The notes under the pieces were generated by a model. It searched no databases and was not told the origin of the DNA. It saw only the letters and a program-made list of their open reading frames with translations. Below, piece after piece: positions 24,606-47,924 of a stretch of 48,871 nt of DNA (within the stretch, counting starts at the first letter, position 1; each line of letters starts with the position of its first letter). This DNA comes from an uncultured Candidatus Saccharibacteria bacterium (GTDB lineage Bacteria; Patescibacteriota; Saccharimonadia; CAILAD01; GCA-016700035). The position numbers were made by a program, and so were the translations under genes. The stretch is from NCBI GenBank assembly GCA_937996675.1, contig CALKUN010000113.1:1-48871 (forward strand), read 5' to 3'.

Positions 24606-24637
24606 AAGCCTCCCTGTCTGGTGGGACAGGGAGGCTT
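24606..24637 (-). terminator. Hairpin downstream of cassette E
   Basis: 13-bp stem AAGCCTCCCTGTC / GACAGGGAGGCTT with a 6-nt loop. The downstream T-run is weak (TTGTCC). Confidence 0.45.
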
Positions 24638-24660
24638 GATGGGTGAATGTGAGGTGTGGC

Positions 24661-25038
24661 TCAGCCGGCGCTGGCACCTCCGAAGCCGAAGGGCACGCTG
24701 GAGTCGATGGCCATCGGCGTGAAGGGCTGCCGCTCAAAGGCGGCGTGGTTGCCGCTGAGCGTCTCCTGCACGCCGACCTTGCAGCCAGCCAGAGCGGCCA
24801 GGGCGCGTTCGATGTAACGCTGCACCACCTCACTGAGGCGGTTGGAGCGGACGCTGACCACCAGAGTGCCGTTCTCGATTCGGCAAGCAGTGACGTCGAG
24901 CTCCGGAATGGTGCGGTTCAGCCGATCCGCAAACTCCGACATGTCGGCGGCTTCGAGGGAGAGGGCGAGTGGTGGCTTGACGCTGACCTGCTTCTCATCT
25001 CTGGCTGCCGACGTGACTGAGGTACTCGTGTTGATCAT
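24661..25038 (-). CDS. GC-rich orphan protein E (125 aa); paralogous block with protein D
   Basis: ATG 25038 is preceded by a GAGAGGA SD. The track start at 25107 is the TTG of the -35 box. G/C-rich, with a plus-strand shadow ORF at 24643..25020. Confidence 0.6.
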   Translation of the reverse strand: MINTSTSVTSAARDEKQVSVKPPLALSLEAADMSEFADRLNRTIPELDVTACRIENGTLVVSVRSNRLSEVVQRYIERALAALAGCKVGVQETLSGNHAAFERQPFTPMAIDSSVPFGFGGASAG

Positions 25039-30411: not shown

Positions 30412-31701
30412 ATGAGCTCAACCGCAACCCGTTGGAAGGATCAGTCCTTCGCTATCGCATCCTCAAATGGAGCGGCGCCGATCCATGATTGGTTCGAACA
30501 GACACCCGAGGTGCTGGCACGCTTGCGTGCAGCTCTTCTCGCCGGCAGCCCGTTGAATCCTCAGTACCCCGTACTTCAGGCTCAGGATCTCACCGCCAAG
30601 GTCGCAAGTCTGAGCGGATACACGGCATCCGACCAGCCGCTGGAGAAGTTGTACTCGCAGGTCTTCAGCCAGCGCAGGAGGCTTCTGCAGCTGGCCATCG
30701 CCGCGCAGGCGGGTGACATGGCAGCCTTCAGGGTCGCCACAGAGAACATGGCCCTGCAGCCGGACGTCGGATCGTTTCGACGCATTCTCGGCAATCTCGC
30801 CGAGCGTGCTGGAGACCGACCCAACCGGGCCGCCGAAGAGCTGTTCGGCATGTTCCCGCCGGACTACGGCTTCAAGCCGAGCTTGCCGCGAGCAGCCTTC
30901 GTTCAGAAGCTGCGCGATCCAGTGATGGCACTGGTCGAGTCGCTCGGTCTGCCAACCGTCATCCCTCCCGCCGAGGAGGTGTGGGATGCCAAGCGCATCG
31001 CTGCGACCCTGGAAGCCACGGTTCTGCCACCGGCGTTCGATGATGCGCGCGTCAAGATGCGCGTCGTCATCACCGCCAAGAAGCCACGCCCCGTCGCCAC
31101 GCGGAAGGGCACGATGTACATCCCGGAGAGCCTCATGCTCAACGGGGTGGATGCATATGTGCTGATGGTGCGCCTTCGACTCACCGTCGAGCGCTGGTAC
31201 CGAGGTGAGCTCACCGGCTACTACATCATGCTCAACGGCACCGTTGCCGACCTGACTGCCGGCCCGGCCATCCTCACGGTGGTCGAGCAGGTTCTGAGGA
31301 GCAATGCCAACTTCTACGCCGAGGAAGATGCCTACCTGGCATGCTCGTTGGCGGAGGGGATCGGCTCTGAGCCCAAGTCCATCTACGAAGTGTACGCCGC
31401 CATGGTGGCGTACTACCGCTTCGTGGACACGCAGCTGCCCACGGGTGCCGCCATTCCACGCTCGATCGAAGACCGCGCGTGGTCGATGACCTGGAAGACC
31501 TTCGCCGGAACCGACTGCAAGACCCCCGGGGTCTACGCCGGTTTCGGTACCAGGGCTTTGCGAGCCACGGTCAGCCTCTGGGATGCCCTTATGCGCGAGC
31601 CGCGCATCGTCGAGTGCTTCCACCTGGGTCGATTCGATCCTGGCTTCGCGACCGAAGTGAACCTTCTGGTCGAAGCGGGGGCCATTCCGGCTCTGAGGTA
31701 G
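30412..31701 (+). CDS. GC-rich orphan protein F (429 aa), no family confidently recognised
   Basis: Hand counts of lines 30481 and 30781 gave about 65-68% G+C, with G/C-dominated third positions on the plus frame. The 386-aa antisense shadow ORF (30463..31623) is typical of high-GC coding DNA. A strong SD precedes the start and a terminator follows. Confidence 0.7.
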   Translation: MSSTATRWKDQSFAIASSNGAAPIHDWFEQTPEVLARLRAALLAGSPLNPQYPVLQAQDLTAKVASLSGYTASDQPLEKLYSQVFSQRRRLLQLAIAAQAGDMAAFRVATENMALQPDVGSFRRILGNLAERAGDRPNRAAEELFGMFPPDYGFKPSLPRAAFVQKLRDPVMALVESLGLPTVIPPAEEVWDAKRIAATLEATVLPPAFDDARVKMRVVITAKKPRPVATRKGTMYIPESLMLNGVDAYVLMVRLRLTVERWYRGELTGYYIMLNGTVADLTAGPAILTVVEQVLRSNANFYAEEDAYLACSLAEGIGSEPKSIYEVYAAMVAYYRFVDTQLPTGAAIPRSIEDRAWSMTWKTFAGTDCKTPGVYAGFGTRALRATVSLWDALMREPRIVECFHLGRFDPGFATEVNLLVEAGAIPALR

Positions 31702-31716
31702 GAGGATTTAGTACCC

Positions 31717-31759
31717 GCGACTGTTGCTATGACGTACGTCATAGCAACAGTCGCTTTTT
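31717..31759. terminator. Strong hairpin terminator after cassette F, shared with the convergent trpC-like gene
   Basis: Perfect 17-bp stem GCGACTGTTGCTATGAC / GTCATAGCAACAGTCGC with loop GTAC, followed by TTTTT. Confidence 0.85.
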
Positions 31760-32298
31760 CATGCGTGCCGGCTGGCTACAAATTGTTCAAGGTGAGTGCC
31801 GACGAGTATGGCATCGGCAGCTGGATCGACATCGTTCATTGTCATGATGTTGCTGGCTTGGCAAAGCCATCCTCTGAAAGCTTTGCGGGCCTCCGCGAAT
31901 GTTTCTGATTTGAGCCCGCCAGTAGCAAGGTCGCGGCTGTTCCAGACAGCACGACATTGCCCGGGCAGTCTGGTGAGTTCAGCGATGGTGTAGGGTTCAA
32001 TGAGGCACTTATCTAGATGGATAGCAGGTATTCGTCCGACAACGAGCACATGGTCGGCGCCTGCCACGAGAGCTTGTTTGATGTCATCATCGCTCGCATG
32101 GATTCCTTTTGCGAGGATTGGCTTAGTGGTGAGGCTACGGGCTTTCCGCACCAGGTCAAAAGATCCATGCCAGCGTGGATCGGTATGGATTGAGATAATA
32201 TCACCGACCTCGTTCGCCATTGCGAAGAGTTCGCTCCAGCTCTTGTCGGACTGCCATCCAAAAGGGGAGTGAGTTTTTACCTCGGCGATGACCTGCAT
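31759..32298 (-). CDS. Short indole-3-glycerol-phosphate synthase (TrpC)-like TIM-barrel protein
   Basis: IAEVKTHSP.G, ISIHTD...GSF, PILAKG, GADHVLV, NSRDL and LVG blocks occur in IGPS order. It is only 179 aa, and no other trp genes are in the window. Confidence 0.55.
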   Translation of the reverse strand: MQVIAEVKTHSPFGWQSDKSWSELFAMANEVGDIISIHTDPRWHGSFDLVRKARSLTTKPILAKGIHASDDDIKQALVAGADHVLVVGRIPAIHLDKCLIEPYTIAELTRLPGQCRAVWNSRDLATGGLKSETFAEARKAFRGWLCQASNIMTMNDVDPAADAILVGTHLEQFVASRHA

Positions 32299-45680: not shown

Positions 45681-46019
45681 ATGCCCGAGATCACCTACGA
45701 CAACTTTGCTGCGGTGGATATCCGTGTGGGAAAGATCGTGGCGGTCGAAGACTTTCCAGAAGCTCGCAAGCCAGCTTATAAGCTGACGGTCGATTTTGGT
45801 GACGAGATTGGTACGAAGCGATCCAGTGCTCAGCTTACTAAGCACTACACAAAGGAAGACCTCAAAGATCGACTCGTTCTCGGCGTAGTAAACTTTCCGC
45901 CACGACAAATCGGACCATTCATGAGTGAATGTCTGACACTCGGCGTACCAGACGAAACGGGCGAGTGTGTTCTTGTGCAGCCTGACACGGGCGCCGTAAT
46001 AGGCGGAAAGCTCTACTAA
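45681..46019 (+). CDS. tRNA-binding domain protein (CsaA/YgjH-like)
   Basis: F..VDIRVGKIV.VE.FPEARKPAYKL.VDFG...SSAQ pattern of CsaA/EMAP-type OB folds. Confidence 0.85.
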   Translation: MPEITYDNFAAVDIRVGKIVAVEDFPEARKPAYKLTVDFGDEIGTKRSSAQLTKHYTKEDLKDRLVLGVVNFPPRQIGPFMSECLTLGVPDETGECVLVQPDTGAVIGGKLY

Positions 46020-46492
46020 TGCATCTCTACAAACTACTCATCTTCGATTGGGAAGGGTGCCTGGTTCAGCTTGGCGCCAAGGCCGAGCTATCCGATGGTG
46101 TGGAGGAGTTTCTCAAAAAGCTTCACTCGGATGGTGTGAAGCTAGCTATTGTGACAAACGGCGGCACCGCCCAGTTTGATCGCCCAGCCGAGTTTGCTGC
46201 GCTCAAACCGCTCTTCGCGACTATCATTACCGCCCATGATGTTGAGCGATCTAAGCCACACCCTGAAGGTATAGAAAAAATATTGACTCAATTGGACCTC
46301 ACGCCAGATGATGCACTTATGGTGGGGGATACAGAACGAGACATTATGGCTGGACGGACTGCAGGACTCGATACGGCACTATATTTACCAGATCAGAACG
46401 CGGCTTCTTATCAGGATAAGGATATTGGACAGCTTGATCCCACATATACCTTTCGTAGCTTTGCAGAGCTCAAGTCACTCATATTGGTCTAA
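46019..46492 (+). CDS. Short HAD-superfamily hydrolase
   Basis: Motif I-like FDWEG, motif III/IV VGDTERDIMAGRTAG. 157 aa. TAATG overlap with the upstream gene. Confidence 0.65.
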   Translation: MHLYKLLIFDWEGCLVQLGAKAELSDGVEEFLKKLHSDGVKLAIVTNGGTAQFDRPAEFAALKPLFATIITAHDVERSKPHPEGIEKILTQLDLTPDDALMVGDTERDIMAGRTAGLDTALYLPDQNAASYQDKDIGQLDPTYTFRSFAELKSLILV

Positions 46493-46497
46493 AACCA

Positions 46498-46526
46498 TTG
46501 ACAAATAGGCAATAACATGCTATTAT
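46498..46526 (+). promoter_or_regulatory. sigma70-type promoter of GC-rich cassette H
   Basis: TTGACA (46498-46503), a 17-nt spacer, then TATTAT (46521-46526). Confidence 0.6.
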
Positions 46527-46562
46527 GTCTGGTATCCGTTTACCGACGAAAGGCTTCCCCCT

Positions 46563-46694
46563 ATGTCACACACGGAAGACAAGAAAGCACCGCAGCACAA
46601 GTCGTCCTGGCCGAAAGGCCTTGTCGTCCTGGGCAGCAACTCTTGGGGTCGCGAAGCCCCTCTCAACACGCATTCCCCGTACCAGCCGAAGTAA
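46563..46694 (+). CDS. Possible 43-aa upstream ORF within the cassette H leader
   Basis: The unlisted ORF MSHTEDKKAPQHKSSWPKGLVVLGSNSWGREAPLNTHSPYQPK has fairly high G/C at third positions but only a weak GAAAGG 13 nt upstream. Confidence 0.3.
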   Translation: MSHTEDKKAPQHKSSWPKGLVVLGSNSWGREAPLNTHSPYQPK

Positions 46695-46734
46695 TTCCCT
46701 TCATTCCCCACATTTCTACACGGAGGTAGAATAC

Positions 46735-46965
46735 ATGCGCAAGCGCCAGACCAAGCCCACCGCCCACCCCACTTCTCTCGACACGTTGAGCTACCGGCTC
46801 CTCTGTTTCGGTCGTCGGGCCAACCAGGTGGCGTCCATGCCGTTCCATCCGAAGCGGGTCGACCTGACCCAATTCGCGGAGCCCGCGATCCATCGCTCGC
46901 CGTCCTTCGGTGACGACCCGCACGTCGTGGTCAGGCTCAGTCAGCGTGACCTCGTCTTGGCCTAG
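46735..46965 (+). CDS. GC-rich orphan protein H (76 aa), no family recognised
   Basis: GGAGG SD 8 nt upstream of the ATG. Third codon positions are almost all G/C. The in-frame upstream part of track ORF 46525 lacks that bias. Confidence 0.55.
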   Translation: MRKRQTKPTAHPTSLDTLSYRLLCFGRRANQVASMPFHPKRVDLTQFAEPAIHRSPSFGDDPHVVVRLSQRDLVLA

Positions 46966-47012
46966 CCAAGACAACCCCTTCCGGGTCCCCATTCTCGCCA
47001 CACGGCCAGAAA

Positions 47013-47032
47013 GGGGACCCGTCCCCATTTTT
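47013..47032 (+). terminator. Terminator-like hairpin after cassette H
   Basis: GGGGA-CCCG-TCCCC followed by ATTTTT. An alternative longer pairing is GGGTCCCC (46983) with GGGGACCC (47013). Confidence 0.45.
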
Positions 47033-47123
47033 ACTCTTGTAAAATGCTTACTGTTCGGGTATCATTCGGTATTATTATCACTTATTCCGCCCCTCTCTTA
47101 TTTGAGGCTAGTTAGAAATATTT

Positions 47124-47924
47124 ATGAAAGTCCTACACATCGGCGATATCGTAGCCCGTCTCGGTCGCCGCACTGTCCAGAAGCTCTTACCCGATCTCAT
47201 AGCTGAGTACGGGATTGATCTCGTCATCGCACAGTCAGAGAATGTGACGACCGGCAATGGCCTTACAATCAAGGCAATACATGAGCTCATGGGAGCTGGT
47301 GTTAATGCTTTTACCGGTGGCAATCACAGCTTCCGCAAAGAAGTCTTTCGCTCATATTTTCAAGACCCCAGCGTCCCCGTCCTCCGACCGGCTAACTATC
47401 CAGCCGATCGTCCAGGCCGAGGATCGATGCTGGTGGAGACCCCATACGGCCCCTTTTTACTCATATCTGTAGAAGCTGCTCGTTACAATGCTGATCAGTC
47501 TGAACTTGGTCATCCGCTCAAGGTAGTCGATGAAATCCTGAAGAAGTACGAACATACCCAGCTAGCTGGCTCGCTCATCGATATGCACGGCGACCTTACC
47601 AGTGAAAAAGTCGCCGCCGGCTATCACTTTGATGGGCGGGCGAGTGTGGTCGTAGGTACGCATACACACGTCCCAACAGCCGATGCGCGTGTATTGCCGG
47701 GCGGAACGGCAACGATTACGGATGTTGGAATGGTCGGTGGAGCTGGGACAGTCTTGGGGGTAGACAAAGACATCATTATCGGTCGATGGCTCGATGACCA
47801 GCCGCGTCGACATGAAGTGCCGACTCACGGTGAGGCAGTCTTTAATGCTGTCCTGGTGGACATTGATACAGCTACCGGAAAAGCCCGTTCGATTCAACAA
47901 ATCCTCCGTACGACTACGATCTAA
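47124..47924 (+). CDS. ymdB: YmdB-family metallophosphoesterase (2',3'-cyclic-nucleotide phosphodiesterase-like)
   Basis: Collinear along its whole length with B. subtilis YmdB as I recall it: GDIV, ENVTTGNG, GGNH, RPANYP, DMHGDLTSEK, GTHTHVPTAD, ITDVGM. Confidence 0.9.
   Translation: MKVLHIGDIVARLGRRTVQKLLPDLIAEYGIDLVIAQSENVTTGNGLTIKAIHELMGAGVNAFTGGNHSFRKEVFRSYFQDPSVPVLRPANYPADRPGRGSMLVETPYGPFLLISVEAARYNADQSELGHPLKVVDEILKKYEHTQLAGSLIDMHGDLTSEKVAAGYHFDGRASVVVGTHTHVPTADARVLPGGTATITDVGMVGGAGTVLGVDKDIIIGRWLDDQPRRHEVPTHGEAVFNAVLVDIDTATGKARSIQQILRTTTI

What the first reader, a model, noticed from the sequence alone, without database searches (positions are those of the whole stretch)
46498..47032. 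G+C-rich cassette with a ~200-nt leader containing a direct repeat around a GNRA-type hairpin and a possible 43-aa upstream ORF
Seen: TTGACA-17-TATTAT at 46498-46526 lies about 200 nt upstream of the 76-aa G+C-rich ORF (46735-46965, GGAGG SD). The leader contains GTCGTCCTGG twice (46601-46610 and 46623-46632), flanking the hairpin GGCC-GAAA-GGCC. It can also be read as a 43-aa ORF (46563-46694) with fairly G/C-rich third positions but a poor SD. A terminator-like GGGGA-CCCG-TCCCC-ATTTTT closes the unit.

Inference: this is either a two-gene module of small proteins (toxin-antitoxin-like in size) or a structured regulatory or non-coding RNA preceding a small protein. Nothing here matches a family I recognise.
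Basis: partly seen in the sequence, partly recalled or inferred. Interest (0 to 1): 0.6.

Follow-up and report, generated by a model that had tools for sequence, protein, structure and literature searches.

The report
Orphan small gene in variable slot
This is most likely an ordinary fast-evolving orphan gene for a small, very basic 76-residue protein, transcribed from its own promoter in a variable slot of a wastewater Saccharibacteria genome; it is not a recognisable regulatory RNA or toxin-antitoxin pair.

Summary
The unit 46498-47032 sits between a HAD hydrolase gene and ymdB in a ~1.2 Mb Saccharibacteria genome.

- **Distribution.** It occurs only in one species-level clade, as 17 haplotypes from metagenome contigs. 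It was not found in 60 relatives, 400 genomes of the phylum, phages or plasmids. No Rfam family matches.
- **ORF76 looks coding.**
  - G+C by codon position is 0.64/0.47/0.86 (0 of 20,000 permutations as extreme).
  - It has a GGAGG 8 nt before the ATG.
  - It is intact in all haplotypes. Both of its indels are in frame, while all six outside are 1 nt.
  - Protein-level constraint is weak (dN/dS ~0.5) and no homologue exists.
- **Other ORFs.** The 43-aa ORF carries a nonsense allele. The antisense 121-aa ORF is broken in some haplotypes.
- **Leader.** It folds no better than shuffles (z +0.83).
- **3' end.** The 3' 190 nt form seven hairpins (z -6.9).
- **Sister lineage.** The promoter, the first transcribed bases and the long 3' hairpin are conserved. 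The ~430-nt cargo is unrelated and carries a different G+C-rich, basic 108-aa ORF.

The same scan had already noted similar G+C-rich orphan cassettes in this genome. Function is unknown and interest is modest.

The parts
46498..46526 (+). Sigma-70-type promoter: TTGACA, 17-nt spacer, TG-extended TATTAT. The predicted transcription start is near 46533.
   Evidence: 11/12 match. Among 17 haplotypes there are 0 variable positions in the -35 box, the TG and the -10 box. Seven spacer positions and three positions just after the -10 box vary. The homologous promoter is in L066 at 1621-1649.
46527..46562 (+). Start of the transcript. The first ~15-20 nt are conserved with the sister lineage. A GAAAGG ribosome-binding-like motif lies at 46548-46553.
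   Evidence: Alignment: 32 of 46 positions from the -35 box onwards are identical to L066. Three 1-nt indels (46543, 46549, 46557) lie here, outside any ORF.
46563..46694 (+). 43-codon upstream ORF. It is not maintained as a protein and is possibly a remnant of, or a dispensable partner to, the slot's original first ORF.
   Evidence: A stop at codon 18 occurs in L013/L014/L015, with 5 non-synonymous against 2 synonymous changes. G+C periodicity is weak (0.56/0.49/0.74, p = 0.046). The only relative is the same-locus variant at 93% identity.
46601..46632 (+). Direct repeat GTCGTCCTGG x2 around the GGCC-GAAA-GGCC hairpin (46609-46620). It forms part of a degenerate 22-nt tandem duplication.
   Evidence: The only variant here is GAAA>GUAA at 46614. 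It keeps a GNRA-type loop and is the same change that creates the stop in the 43-aa ORF.
46645..46660 (+). Second local hairpin, GGGGU-CGCGAA-GCCCC.
   Evidence: The variants change U.G to C-G at the closing pair (46649/46656). One further change lies in the loop (46652).
46722..46726 (+). Shine-Dalgarno GGAGG, 8 nt before the ORF76 start codon.
   Evidence: Read. It is invariant in all haplotypes.
46735..46965 (+). ORF76, encoding 76-79 aa. The product is basic (pI 10.8), hydrophilic and an orphan. This is the probable protein product of the unit.
   Evidence: - G+C by codon position is 0.64/0.47/0.86, with 0 of 20,000 permutations as extreme. The genome's own RNase P RNA and tmRNA show no such periodicity.
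- Third positions are 50% C and 1% A, like the other G+C-rich cassettes in the window.
- The ORF is intact in 17 haplotypes. Both indels (6 nt and 3 nt) are in frame, against 0 of 6 outside (Fisher p = 0.036).
- dN/dS is 0.43-0.55.
- AlphaFold2 gives pLDDT 54.
46843..46978 (+). Array of six adjacent local hairpins (H1-H6) overlapping codons 37-76 and the stop codon. An alternative 8-bp long-range pairing exists between 46854-46861 and 46914-46921.
   Evidence: Folding z = -3.98 alone and -6.86 together with H7; the minus strand gives -4.28. In 46843-47032, of 10 substitution sites, 8 fall in loops, 2 keep their pair and none breaks a pair (p ~0.007). Inverted repeats are listed.
46982..47021 (+). 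Long 3' hairpin H7 with 18-nt arms. It is the conserved 3' boundary of the slot and a probable terminator or 3'-end stabiliser.
   Evidence: In sister lineage L066 all 17 pairs hold: CG>UG, UA>UG, and the A.A mismatch becomes A-U. The loop changes from ACAC to UCUC.
47022..47032 (+). UCCCC-AUUUUU tail. This is the U-run of the terminator, which is weakened in some haplotypes.
   Evidence: The U-run reads GTATTAAC or GTATTTAC in L013/L015/L019. It is kept as ATTTTT in L066.

Best explanation
**What it is.** The unit is a self-contained expression cassette for a lineage-restricted orphan small protein.

**How it is read.** A strong sigma-70-type promoter starts transcription near 46533. A ~200-nt C-rich leader follows; it is not unusually structured and it contains a dispensable 43-codon ORF. 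Ribosomes then start at the GGAGG-ATG of ORF76 and make a 76-79-residue, very basic, probably disordered protein. The transcript ends at, or is stabilised by, the long hairpin 46982-47021 with its U-run. The hairpin array just upstream probably adds 3'-end stability.

**Where it sits.** The cassette occupies a fixed slot between the HAD gene and ymdB. The slot's promoter, first transcribed bases and 3' hairpin are under selection. Its ~430-nt cargo is not conserved between lineages: the sister lineage carries an unrelated G+C-rich ORF for a basic 108-residue protein.

**Shown here:** the anatomy, the promoter and hairpin conservation, the coding-type periodicity, the narrow distribution and the loss of the other ORFs.

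**Inferred:** transcription, translation, termination and any function of the protein.
For: - **Promoter.** It is an 11/12 match. Its hexamers and TG are invariant while 7 of 17 spacer positions vary among 17 haplotypes. It is conserved in L066 although synonymous sites in the flanking genes are saturated (pS 0.74-0.84).
- **ORF76 composition.**
  - The 3-nt G+C periodicity is 0.64/0.47/0.86, with 0 of 20,000 permutations as extreme.
  - It holds in both halves of the ORF (p = 0.022 and 5e-5).
  - It is absent from the genome's RNase P RNA and tmRNA.
  - The periodic signal in ORF76's frame is confined to about 46700-46980, essentially the ORF itself.
  - Third-position composition matches the other G+C-rich cassettes of the window and L066's ORF108.
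- **ORF76 integrity.** GGAGG sits at optimal spacing and is invariant. ORF76 is the only ORF of the unit intact in all haplotypes; the 43-aa ORF, the 121-aa antisense ORF and the 146-aa extension all acquire stops. Indels inside it are 6 nt and 3 nt, while all six outside are 1 nt.
- **Not a known RNA.** No Rfam family matches. RNase P RNA and tmRNA lie elsewhere in the genome. The leader's z-score is +0.83.
- **Slot.** L066 and L069 share the synteny, the promoter and hairpin H7, with 82.6% identity over 109 nt at the 3' side. No similarity exists in the cargo by blastn, tblastx or tblastn.
- **Recurring pattern.** Strongly structured 3' ends recur at other G+C-rich cassettes in the window.
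Against: - **No protein-level selection shown.** dN/dS is 0.43-0.55, from 7 synonymous and 11 non-synonymous changes. The 21 substitution sites fall 7/4/10 on the three codon positions, which is not significantly uneven.
- **Intactness is weak evidence.** About 65% of neutral histories with 21 substitutions would leave the ORF open.
- **No homologue.** None was found among 5.8 billion clustered proteins or 1.84 billion representatives. AlphaFold2 gives no confident fold.
- **The C-terminal 40 codons are ambiguous.** They coincide with hairpins whose substitutions sit in loops. The 4:1 synonymous excess there is equally explained by RNA structure.
- **The cargo is unusually similar between haplotypes.** It differs by 0-5% between haplotypes whose flanking genes differ at 31-37% of synonymous sites. 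This needs either a recent spread by recombination or constraint on every base.
- **The leader is unexplained.** Nothing accounts for a 200-nt leader.
Confidence: 0.6

Rival explanations
1. The unit is a non-coding or dual-function RNA. The functional product would be the ~190-nt 3' domain of seven hairpins (46843-47032), perhaps released as a 3'-derived small RNA. ORF76 would then be incidental, or a second function.
For: - Folding z is -6.86 on the plus strand against -4.28 on the minus strand, and still -3.98 without the terminator hairpin.
- None of the 10 substitution sites in 46843-47032 breaks a pair, and 8 lie in loops (p ~0.007).
- L016 shows 0 differences in 46850-46999, although its flanking genes differ at 31-37% of synonymous sites.
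- The loop variant GAAA>GUAA keeps a GNRA loop while destroying the 43-aa ORF.
Against: - The hairpin domain carries strong codon-type periodicity (0.72/0.40/0.85, p = 5e-5), which the genome's true structured RNAs lack.
- No Rfam family matches.
- The domain is absent from the sister lineage, whose cargo has no excess structure (z +0.09).
- Only one-sided pair changes were seen and no double compensatory change.
- After correcting for G+C across the window, the region lies only -2.4 SD below the trend, similar to the 3' ends of other cassettes.
- Recombination can explain the low divergence.
Confidence: 0.15
2. The unit is a decaying or near-neutral transcribed remnant. The 43-aa ORF and ORF76 would be pieces of one former slot ORF broken by a frameshift near 46695-46720. 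The sequence would persist because it is young and spreads by recombination, not because it does anything.
For: - The G+C-rich codon phase switches from the 43-aa ORF's frame (46545-46724) to ORF76's frame (46695-46979).
- A CGAAAGG-ATG start context lies shortly downstream of the promoter, as for ORF108 in L066.
- dN/dS of ~0.5 is not distinguishable from 1.
- The 43-aa ORF has a nonsense allele.
- The cargo is not conserved across lineages.
- There is no homologue and no predicted fold.
Against: - ORF76 has its own invariant GGAGG and ATG.
- Both indels inside it keep the frame.
- The unit was present in every contig of this clade that was examined, from many samples.
- The promoter and the 3' hairpin are kept under selection over a distance at which neutral sites are saturated. 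That is hard to reconcile with a useless transcript.
Confidence: 0.13
3. The unit is a two-gene small-protein module, toxin-antitoxin-like or otherwise paired, in which both the 43-aa and the 76-aa products are made and act together.
For: - Both ORFs lie on one predicted transcript.
- No frame-breaking indel falls in either ORF, and four of the six 1-nt indels lie within ~20 nt of an ORF end.
- The 43-aa ORF shows weak periodicity (p = 0.046) and has a GAAAGG 9 nt upstream.
- Accessory slots often hold addiction modules (general knowledge).
Against: - The 43-aa ORF is cut at codon 18 in a circulating sub-lineage found in three samples.
- It has 5 non-synonymous against 2 synonymous changes.
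- Neither ORF hits PADLOC, Pfam, NCBIfam or PHROGs.
- The sizes (43 and 76 aa), the 40-nt gap and the two basic hydrophilic products do not fit type I or type II toxin-antitoxin patterns.
- No antisense promoter was found.
- The sister lineage has a single ORF.
Confidence: 0.07

Closest known systems
Taxonomically restricted (orphan) accessory genes in flexible chromosomal slots, including the other G+C-rich orphan cassettes noted by this scan in the same window
   Same: - It has its own promoter, a G+C-rich ORF with C-rich third positions and a strong 3' hairpin.
- It has no homologues outside a narrow clade, and protein-level constraint is relaxed.
- A related lineage holds different content at the same position.
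   Different: - It has a ~200-nt leader holding a second, non-maintained ORF.
- The product is very basic (pI 10.8), while the other cassettes are mostly acidic.
- The hairpin array reaches 120 nt into the coding region.
Integron gene cassettes (promoterless ORF plus an attC recombination hairpin)
   Same: It is a small ORF followed by an imperfect long hairpin. The cargo differs between strains at a fixed position.
   Different: - The cassette carries its own promoter.
- The hairpin and promoter are single-copy in the genome, so there is no attC-like family.
- No integrase gene is adjacent.
- The conserved parts belong to the locus and do not travel with the cargo.
Type I and type II toxin-antitoxin modules
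   Same: Small ORFs, a long leader and an accessory location.
   Different: - There is no family match.
- There is no hydrophobic toxin and no antisense promoter.
- The upstream ORF is dispensable.
Cis-regulatory 5' leaders (riboswitches, ribosomal-protein leaders, attenuators)
   Same: A long untranslated stretch with local hairpins lies between the promoter and the start codon.
   Different: - No Rfam match.
- No excess folding stability (z +0.83).
- Not conserved outside one species-level clade.
3'-terminal stem-loop arrays that protect bacterial mRNAs from 3' exonucleases (for example REP/BIME-type hairpins in E. coli; from general knowledge)
   Same: Several stable G+C-rich hairpins lie at the 3' end of a transcript.
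   Different: The hairpins here are all different in sequence and single-copy in the genome. Most of them lie inside the coding region.

Membership tests
Any curated RNA family (Rfam 15) | Covariance-model score at or above the family's gathering threshold | tested here: not met
   The only sub-threshold hits were to a microRNA model on hairpin H7, on both strands (28.9 bits against an 81-bit threshold).
Cis-regulatory structured leader (riboswitch-like) | Folding stability above that of shuffled sequence, and a structure conserved across diverged homologues | tested here: not met
   The leader 46533-46734 has z = +0.83. No homologue exists outside the clade, and the sister lineage has a different, ~60-nt leader.
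Protein-coding gene (ORF76) | Codon-position compositional periodicity and a ribosome-binding site | tested here: met
   G+C by codon position is 0.64/0.47/0.86, with 0 of 20,000 permutations as extreme. GGAGG lies 8 nt upstream.
Protein-coding gene (ORF76) | Purifying selection on the protein (dN/dS clearly below 1; excess of third-position changes) | tested here: inconclusive
   dN/dS is 0.43-0.55, based on 18-19 changes. Substitution sites fall 7/4/10 by codon position. In-frame indels give p = 0.036.
Protein-coding gene (ORF76) | Detected transcript and protein | not testable with these tools
No proteomic data were available.
Protein-coding gene (43-aa ORF) | Open reading frame maintained in all carriers | tested here: not met
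   AAA>TAA at codon 18 in L013, L014 and L015.
Type II toxin-antitoxin module | Both products belong to known toxin and antitoxin families, or at least form an adjacent, co-conserved pair | tested here: not met
   No Pfam, NCBIfam or PADLOC hit. The upstream partner is broken in a sub-lineage.
Type I toxin-antitoxin module | Small hydrophobic toxin and an antisense RNA with its own promoter | tested here: not met
   ORF76 is hydrophilic (GRAVY -0.48, pI 10.8). No minus-strand promoter-like site lies in 46200-47300.
Integron cassette | An attC-type recombination site shared among cassettes, and an integrase nearby | tested here: not met
   Hairpin H7 and the boundary sequences are unique in the genome, even allowing 9 mismatches. 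The neighbours are HAD, YmdB and MgtE.
Intrinsic (factor-independent) terminator | A G+C-rich stem directly followed by a U-run | tested here: inconclusive
   The small stem 47013-47026 with its adjacent U-run fits the scan but is not conserved. The conserved long stem is separated from the U-run by 5-6 nt. The U-run is interrupted in three haplotypes.
Sigma-70-type promoter | -35 and -10 hexamers at 17 nt spacing, conserved relative to their surroundings | tested here: met
   The transcription start itself was not mapped.

The most novel reading that the evidence does not exclude
The HAD-ymdB slot may be a fixed expression socket made of a promoter, the first transcribed bases, a ribosome-binding context and the 3' hairpin. 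Unrelated G+C-rich ORFs for small basic proteins would be exchanged through it among Saccharibacteria strains, perhaps through their natural competence. In this cargo, the seven-hairpin 3' domain overlapping the coding region would itself be a functional RNA, making the transcript dual-function.
Probability: 0.12. Interest if true: 0.65.

Novelty: new member of a known kind. Interest (0 to 1): 0.3.

Why it matters
Saccharibacteria have tiny genomes and depend on host bacteria, so any gene they keep or keep replacing is a candidate for host interaction. This locus adds one more example of G+C-rich, separately promoted orphan genes in hypervariable slots of a wastewater lineage. It also shows that the slot's control elements (promoter and 3' hairpin) outlast their cargo.

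The work removes a candidate from the list of possible new riboswitches, large non-coding RNAs and toxin-antitoxin systems. What stays open is why such cargo is G+C-rich, why both known cargos encode very basic small proteins, and whether the hairpin array inside the coding region has a role of its own.

Tried and rejected
**Known RNAs**
- Rfam search around the unit with permissive filters, and over the whole window: nothing.
- Divergent RNase P RNA or tmRNA: rejected, because both are found elsewhere in the genome.

**DNA homologues**
- 60 relatives and 400 genomes of the phylum: only chance 30-40-nt matches.
- Own genome: single copy.
- Phage and plasmid collections: no match.

**Protein homologues**
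- ORF76 found only 87-88% identical same-locus variants. The one other hit, P0012, is the translation of a tandem DNA repeat and a chance match.
- The 43-aa ORF found only its own variant.
- Back-translated pattern scans of genome, viral and metagenome contigs found nothing.
- An exact-pattern metagenome scan with the conserved ymdB-promoter 20-mer gave one unrelated chance hit.
- A marginal tblastn hit in contig C40 lies out of frame inside a membrane-protein gene and contains a stop.
- Pfam, PHROGs, PADLOC, NCBIfam and PDB sequences: no hits.

**Other attempts**
- AlphaFold2 on ORF76 gave pLDDT 54, too low for a fold search.
- The antisense 121-aa ORF, called as a gene in some public annotations, was rejected. 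Its start codon is lost and it gains a stop in three haplotypes.
- RNAalifold on the haplotypes was set aside as biased towards compatible pairs. The single-sequence fold was used instead.
- One script for folding controls returned no answer and was replaced.
- Two literature searches found nothing on such elements in Saccharibacteria.

**Tools and models not used**
- No covariance model was built, because even the sister lineage lacks the cargo.
- No complex prediction was run, because binding between the two peptides is not claimed.
Full report
**1. Observation.**
- One search finds TTGACA-17-TATTAT at 46498-46526. It matches 11 of 12 consensus positions and has TG before the -10 box.
- Searches confirm GTCGTCCTGG at 46601 and 46623. 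There are 3 copies in the window against 0.07 expected.
- GGCC-GAAA-GGCC lies between the two copies at 46609-46620.
- One search lists the 43-aa ORF (46563-46694) and the 76-aa ORF (46735-46965). GGAGG lies 8 nt before the ATG of the latter.
- The stretch is 61-62% G+C and C-skewed, in a ~51% background.
- The neighbours are a tRNA-binding-domain gene and a HAD hydrolase gene upstream, and ymdB and mgtE downstream.

**2. Known RNAs are excluded.**
- Rfam gives nothing, either around the unit or across the window apart from three tRNAs.
- The genome is ~1.2 Mb, and earlier notes of this scan identify it as a wastewater Saccharibacterium.
- It has its RNase P RNA and tmRNA on other contigs.

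**3. Distribution.**
- The 551-nt query matches only itself in its own genome.
- It finds only chance 30-40-nt matches in 60 relatives and 400 genomes of the phylum.
- It finds nothing in phage or plasmid collections.
- In 24 relatives that have ymdB, the gene upstream abuts ymdB directly and there is no G+C-rich spacer.
- Public gene callers have annotated this spot in two ways: as the 76-aa plus-strand ORF, or as a 121-aa antisense ORF. Both clusters contain only near-identical sequences.
- From their contigs I collected 17 distinct haplotypes of the interval.

**4. What the haplotypes say.**
- *Promoter.* The -35 box, the TG and the -10 box never vary. Seven of 17 spacer positions and three positions after the -10 box do vary. 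This is the pattern of a working promoter.
- *43-aa ORF.* It gains a stop at codon 18 in three contigs from three samples. The change is the loop variant GAAA>GUAA. Its other changes are mostly non-synonymous.
- *Other frames.* The antisense 121-aa ORF loses its start and gains a stop. The 146-aa upstream extension of ORF76 and a 70-aa frame also gain stops.
- *ORF76.* It alone is intact everywhere. Its two indels are 6 nt and 3 nt, whereas all six indels elsewhere in the interval are 1 nt (Fisher p = 0.036).
- *Limits.* Protein-level selection is not demonstrated. dN/dS is 0.43-0.55, against 0.03 for ymdB and 0.09 for HAD. Substitution sites fall 7/4/10 across the codon positions. About 65% of neutral histories would leave the frame open anyway.

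**5. Coding signal.**
- ORF76 has G+C of 0.64/0.47/0.86 at codon positions 1, 2 and 3.
- No permutation out of 20,000 reaches that spread. It holds in both halves of the ORF.
- The genome's own RNase P RNA and tmRNA show no periodicity.
- The periodic signal in ORF76's frame is confined to about 46700-46980, essentially the ORF itself.
It differs from HAD and ymdB.
- The 43-aa ORF shows only a weak signal (p = 0.046).
- The product of ORF76 is basic (pI 10.8) and hydrophilic.
  - It has no family or structure match.
  - It has no relative below 87% identity in two very large protein sets. The single extra hit is a tandem-repeat artefact.
  - It has no confident predicted fold.

**6. RNA structure.**
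- The whole transcript folds better than shuffles (z -3.2 on the plus strand, -1.1 on the minus strand).
- The 202-nt leader has z = +0.83 and the first 108 nt of ORF76 have z = +0.69.
- The last 190 nt (46843-47032) have z = -6.86, with seven adjacent hairpins. The value is still -3.98 without the last hairpin and is -4.28 on the minus strand.
- Using the fold of the window sequence alone, the ten substitution sites in this stretch comprise eight in loops, two that keep their pair and none that breaks one (p ~0.007).
- Four of the five sites inside the ORF are also synonymous, so RNA constraint and protein constraint cannot be separated here.
- After a G+C correction across the whole window, the stretch lies 2.4-3.0 SD below the trend. 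That is comparable with the 3' ends of other G+C-rich cassettes and with the tRNA genes. It is therefore unusual but not unique.

**7. The sister lineage.**
- Searching YmdB relatives gave a contig, L066, with YmdB 89% identical and the same gene order.
- Synonymous sites in its flanking genes are saturated (pS 0.74-0.84), so anything still alignable is under selection.
- What aligns:
  - The promoter and the first ~15 transcribed bases (32 of 46 positions).
  - The long hairpin together with the region in front of ymdB (82.6% over 109 nt).
- All 17 pairs of the long hairpin hold in L066, through CG>UG, UA>UG and an A.A mismatch that becomes A-U.
- The ~430 nt in between show no similarity by blastn, tblastx or tblastn.
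- L066 instead carries a plus-strand 108-aa ORF.
  - Its G+C by codon position is 0.52/0.63/0.80 (p = 1.5e-4).
  - It has the same C-rich third positions and a pI of 11.9.
  - Its leader is only ~60 nt, and its 3' part has no excess structure.
- A third contig, L069, has the L066-type cassette at 99.6% identity. It also has an extra 364-aa gene between HAD and the promoter.
- The boundary sequences are single-copy in the window's genome, so this is not an attC-like system.

**8. Interpretation.**
The best reading is a locus-fixed promoter and 3' hairpin framing a fast-turnover cargo. In this clade the cargo encodes a small basic orphan protein (confidence 0.6).
- Whether the cargo was swapped or diverged beyond recognition cannot be decided. 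At dN/dS ~0.5 and saturated dS, orthologues would be unrecognisable.
- The cargo differs by only 0-5% between haplotypes whose flanking genes differ at 31-37% of synonymous sites. The region is a recombination mosaic: in L019, for example, ymdB is identical while HAD has dS 0.46. Recent spread by recombination is therefore the simplest cause, but constraint on every base remains possible.
- The rivals are:
  - a functional 3' RNA domain or dual-function transcript (0.15);
  - a near-neutral remnant of a frameshifted slot ORF (0.13);
  - a two-protein or toxin-antitoxin module (0.07).

**9. Limits.**
- All evolutionary tests rest on about 40 substitutions within one species-level clade, plus two contigs of one sister lineage.

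Noticed in passing
window 46019-46492 (HAD gene); L066 1118-1606; L069 4673-5155: The HAD hydrolase gene next to the slot is hypervariable. It is only 49% identical in protein between the window and L066, while its neighbours are 86-89% identical. Its 3' two-thirds are only 65-69% identical in DNA between L066 and L069, which are ~99% identical from the cassette promoter through ymdB. Within the window's own clade, HAD and the tRNA-binding-domain gene have dS of 0.45-1.7, against 0-0.4 for ymdB.
   Followed up: partly
L069 5213-6307 (minus strand): A 364-aa orphan gene with no Pfam family lies between HAD and the cassette promoter in one strain of the sister lineage. It is absent from L066 and from the window. 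The insertion point is therefore just upstream of the conserved promoter.
   Followed up: partly
window 47037-47081: The stretch in front of ymdB contains the promoter-like TTGTAA-17-TATCAT and a direct repeat, TTCGGGTA-TCA-TTCGGTA. It is almost invariant between the window and the sister lineage even though neutral sites are saturated. It may be an operator as well as the ymdB promoter.
   Followed up: no
window 46788-46810: A terminator-like hairpin GAGCT-ACC-GGCTC followed by a weak T-run lies inside the variable N-terminal third of ORF76. Two of the variable sites fall in its tail.
   Followed up: no
window 46736-46840: The first 36 codons of ORF76 hold 16 of the ORF's 21 substitution sites and both in-frame indels. 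One indel is a 6-nt CGCAAG-type duplication and the other is 3 nt in a C-run. The leader and the 3' domain are far less variable.
   Followed up: partly
window 24606-24795 and 31636-31825: These are two of the most stably folding 190-nt windows of the contig after G+C correction, apart from those around the tRNA genes. They lie at the ends of other G+C-rich cassettes, which suggests that strong 3' hairpins are a shared trait of these cassettes.
   Followed up: no
relatives' loci L024, L026, L029, L034, L041, L043, L044: In many relatives ymdB directly follows a ~500-aa ORF, which matches the RNase Y gene seen in L069. The HAD gene, the tRNA-binding-domain gene, the 110-aa gene and the cassette therefore look like later insertions into an rny-ymdB pair.
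   Followed up: no
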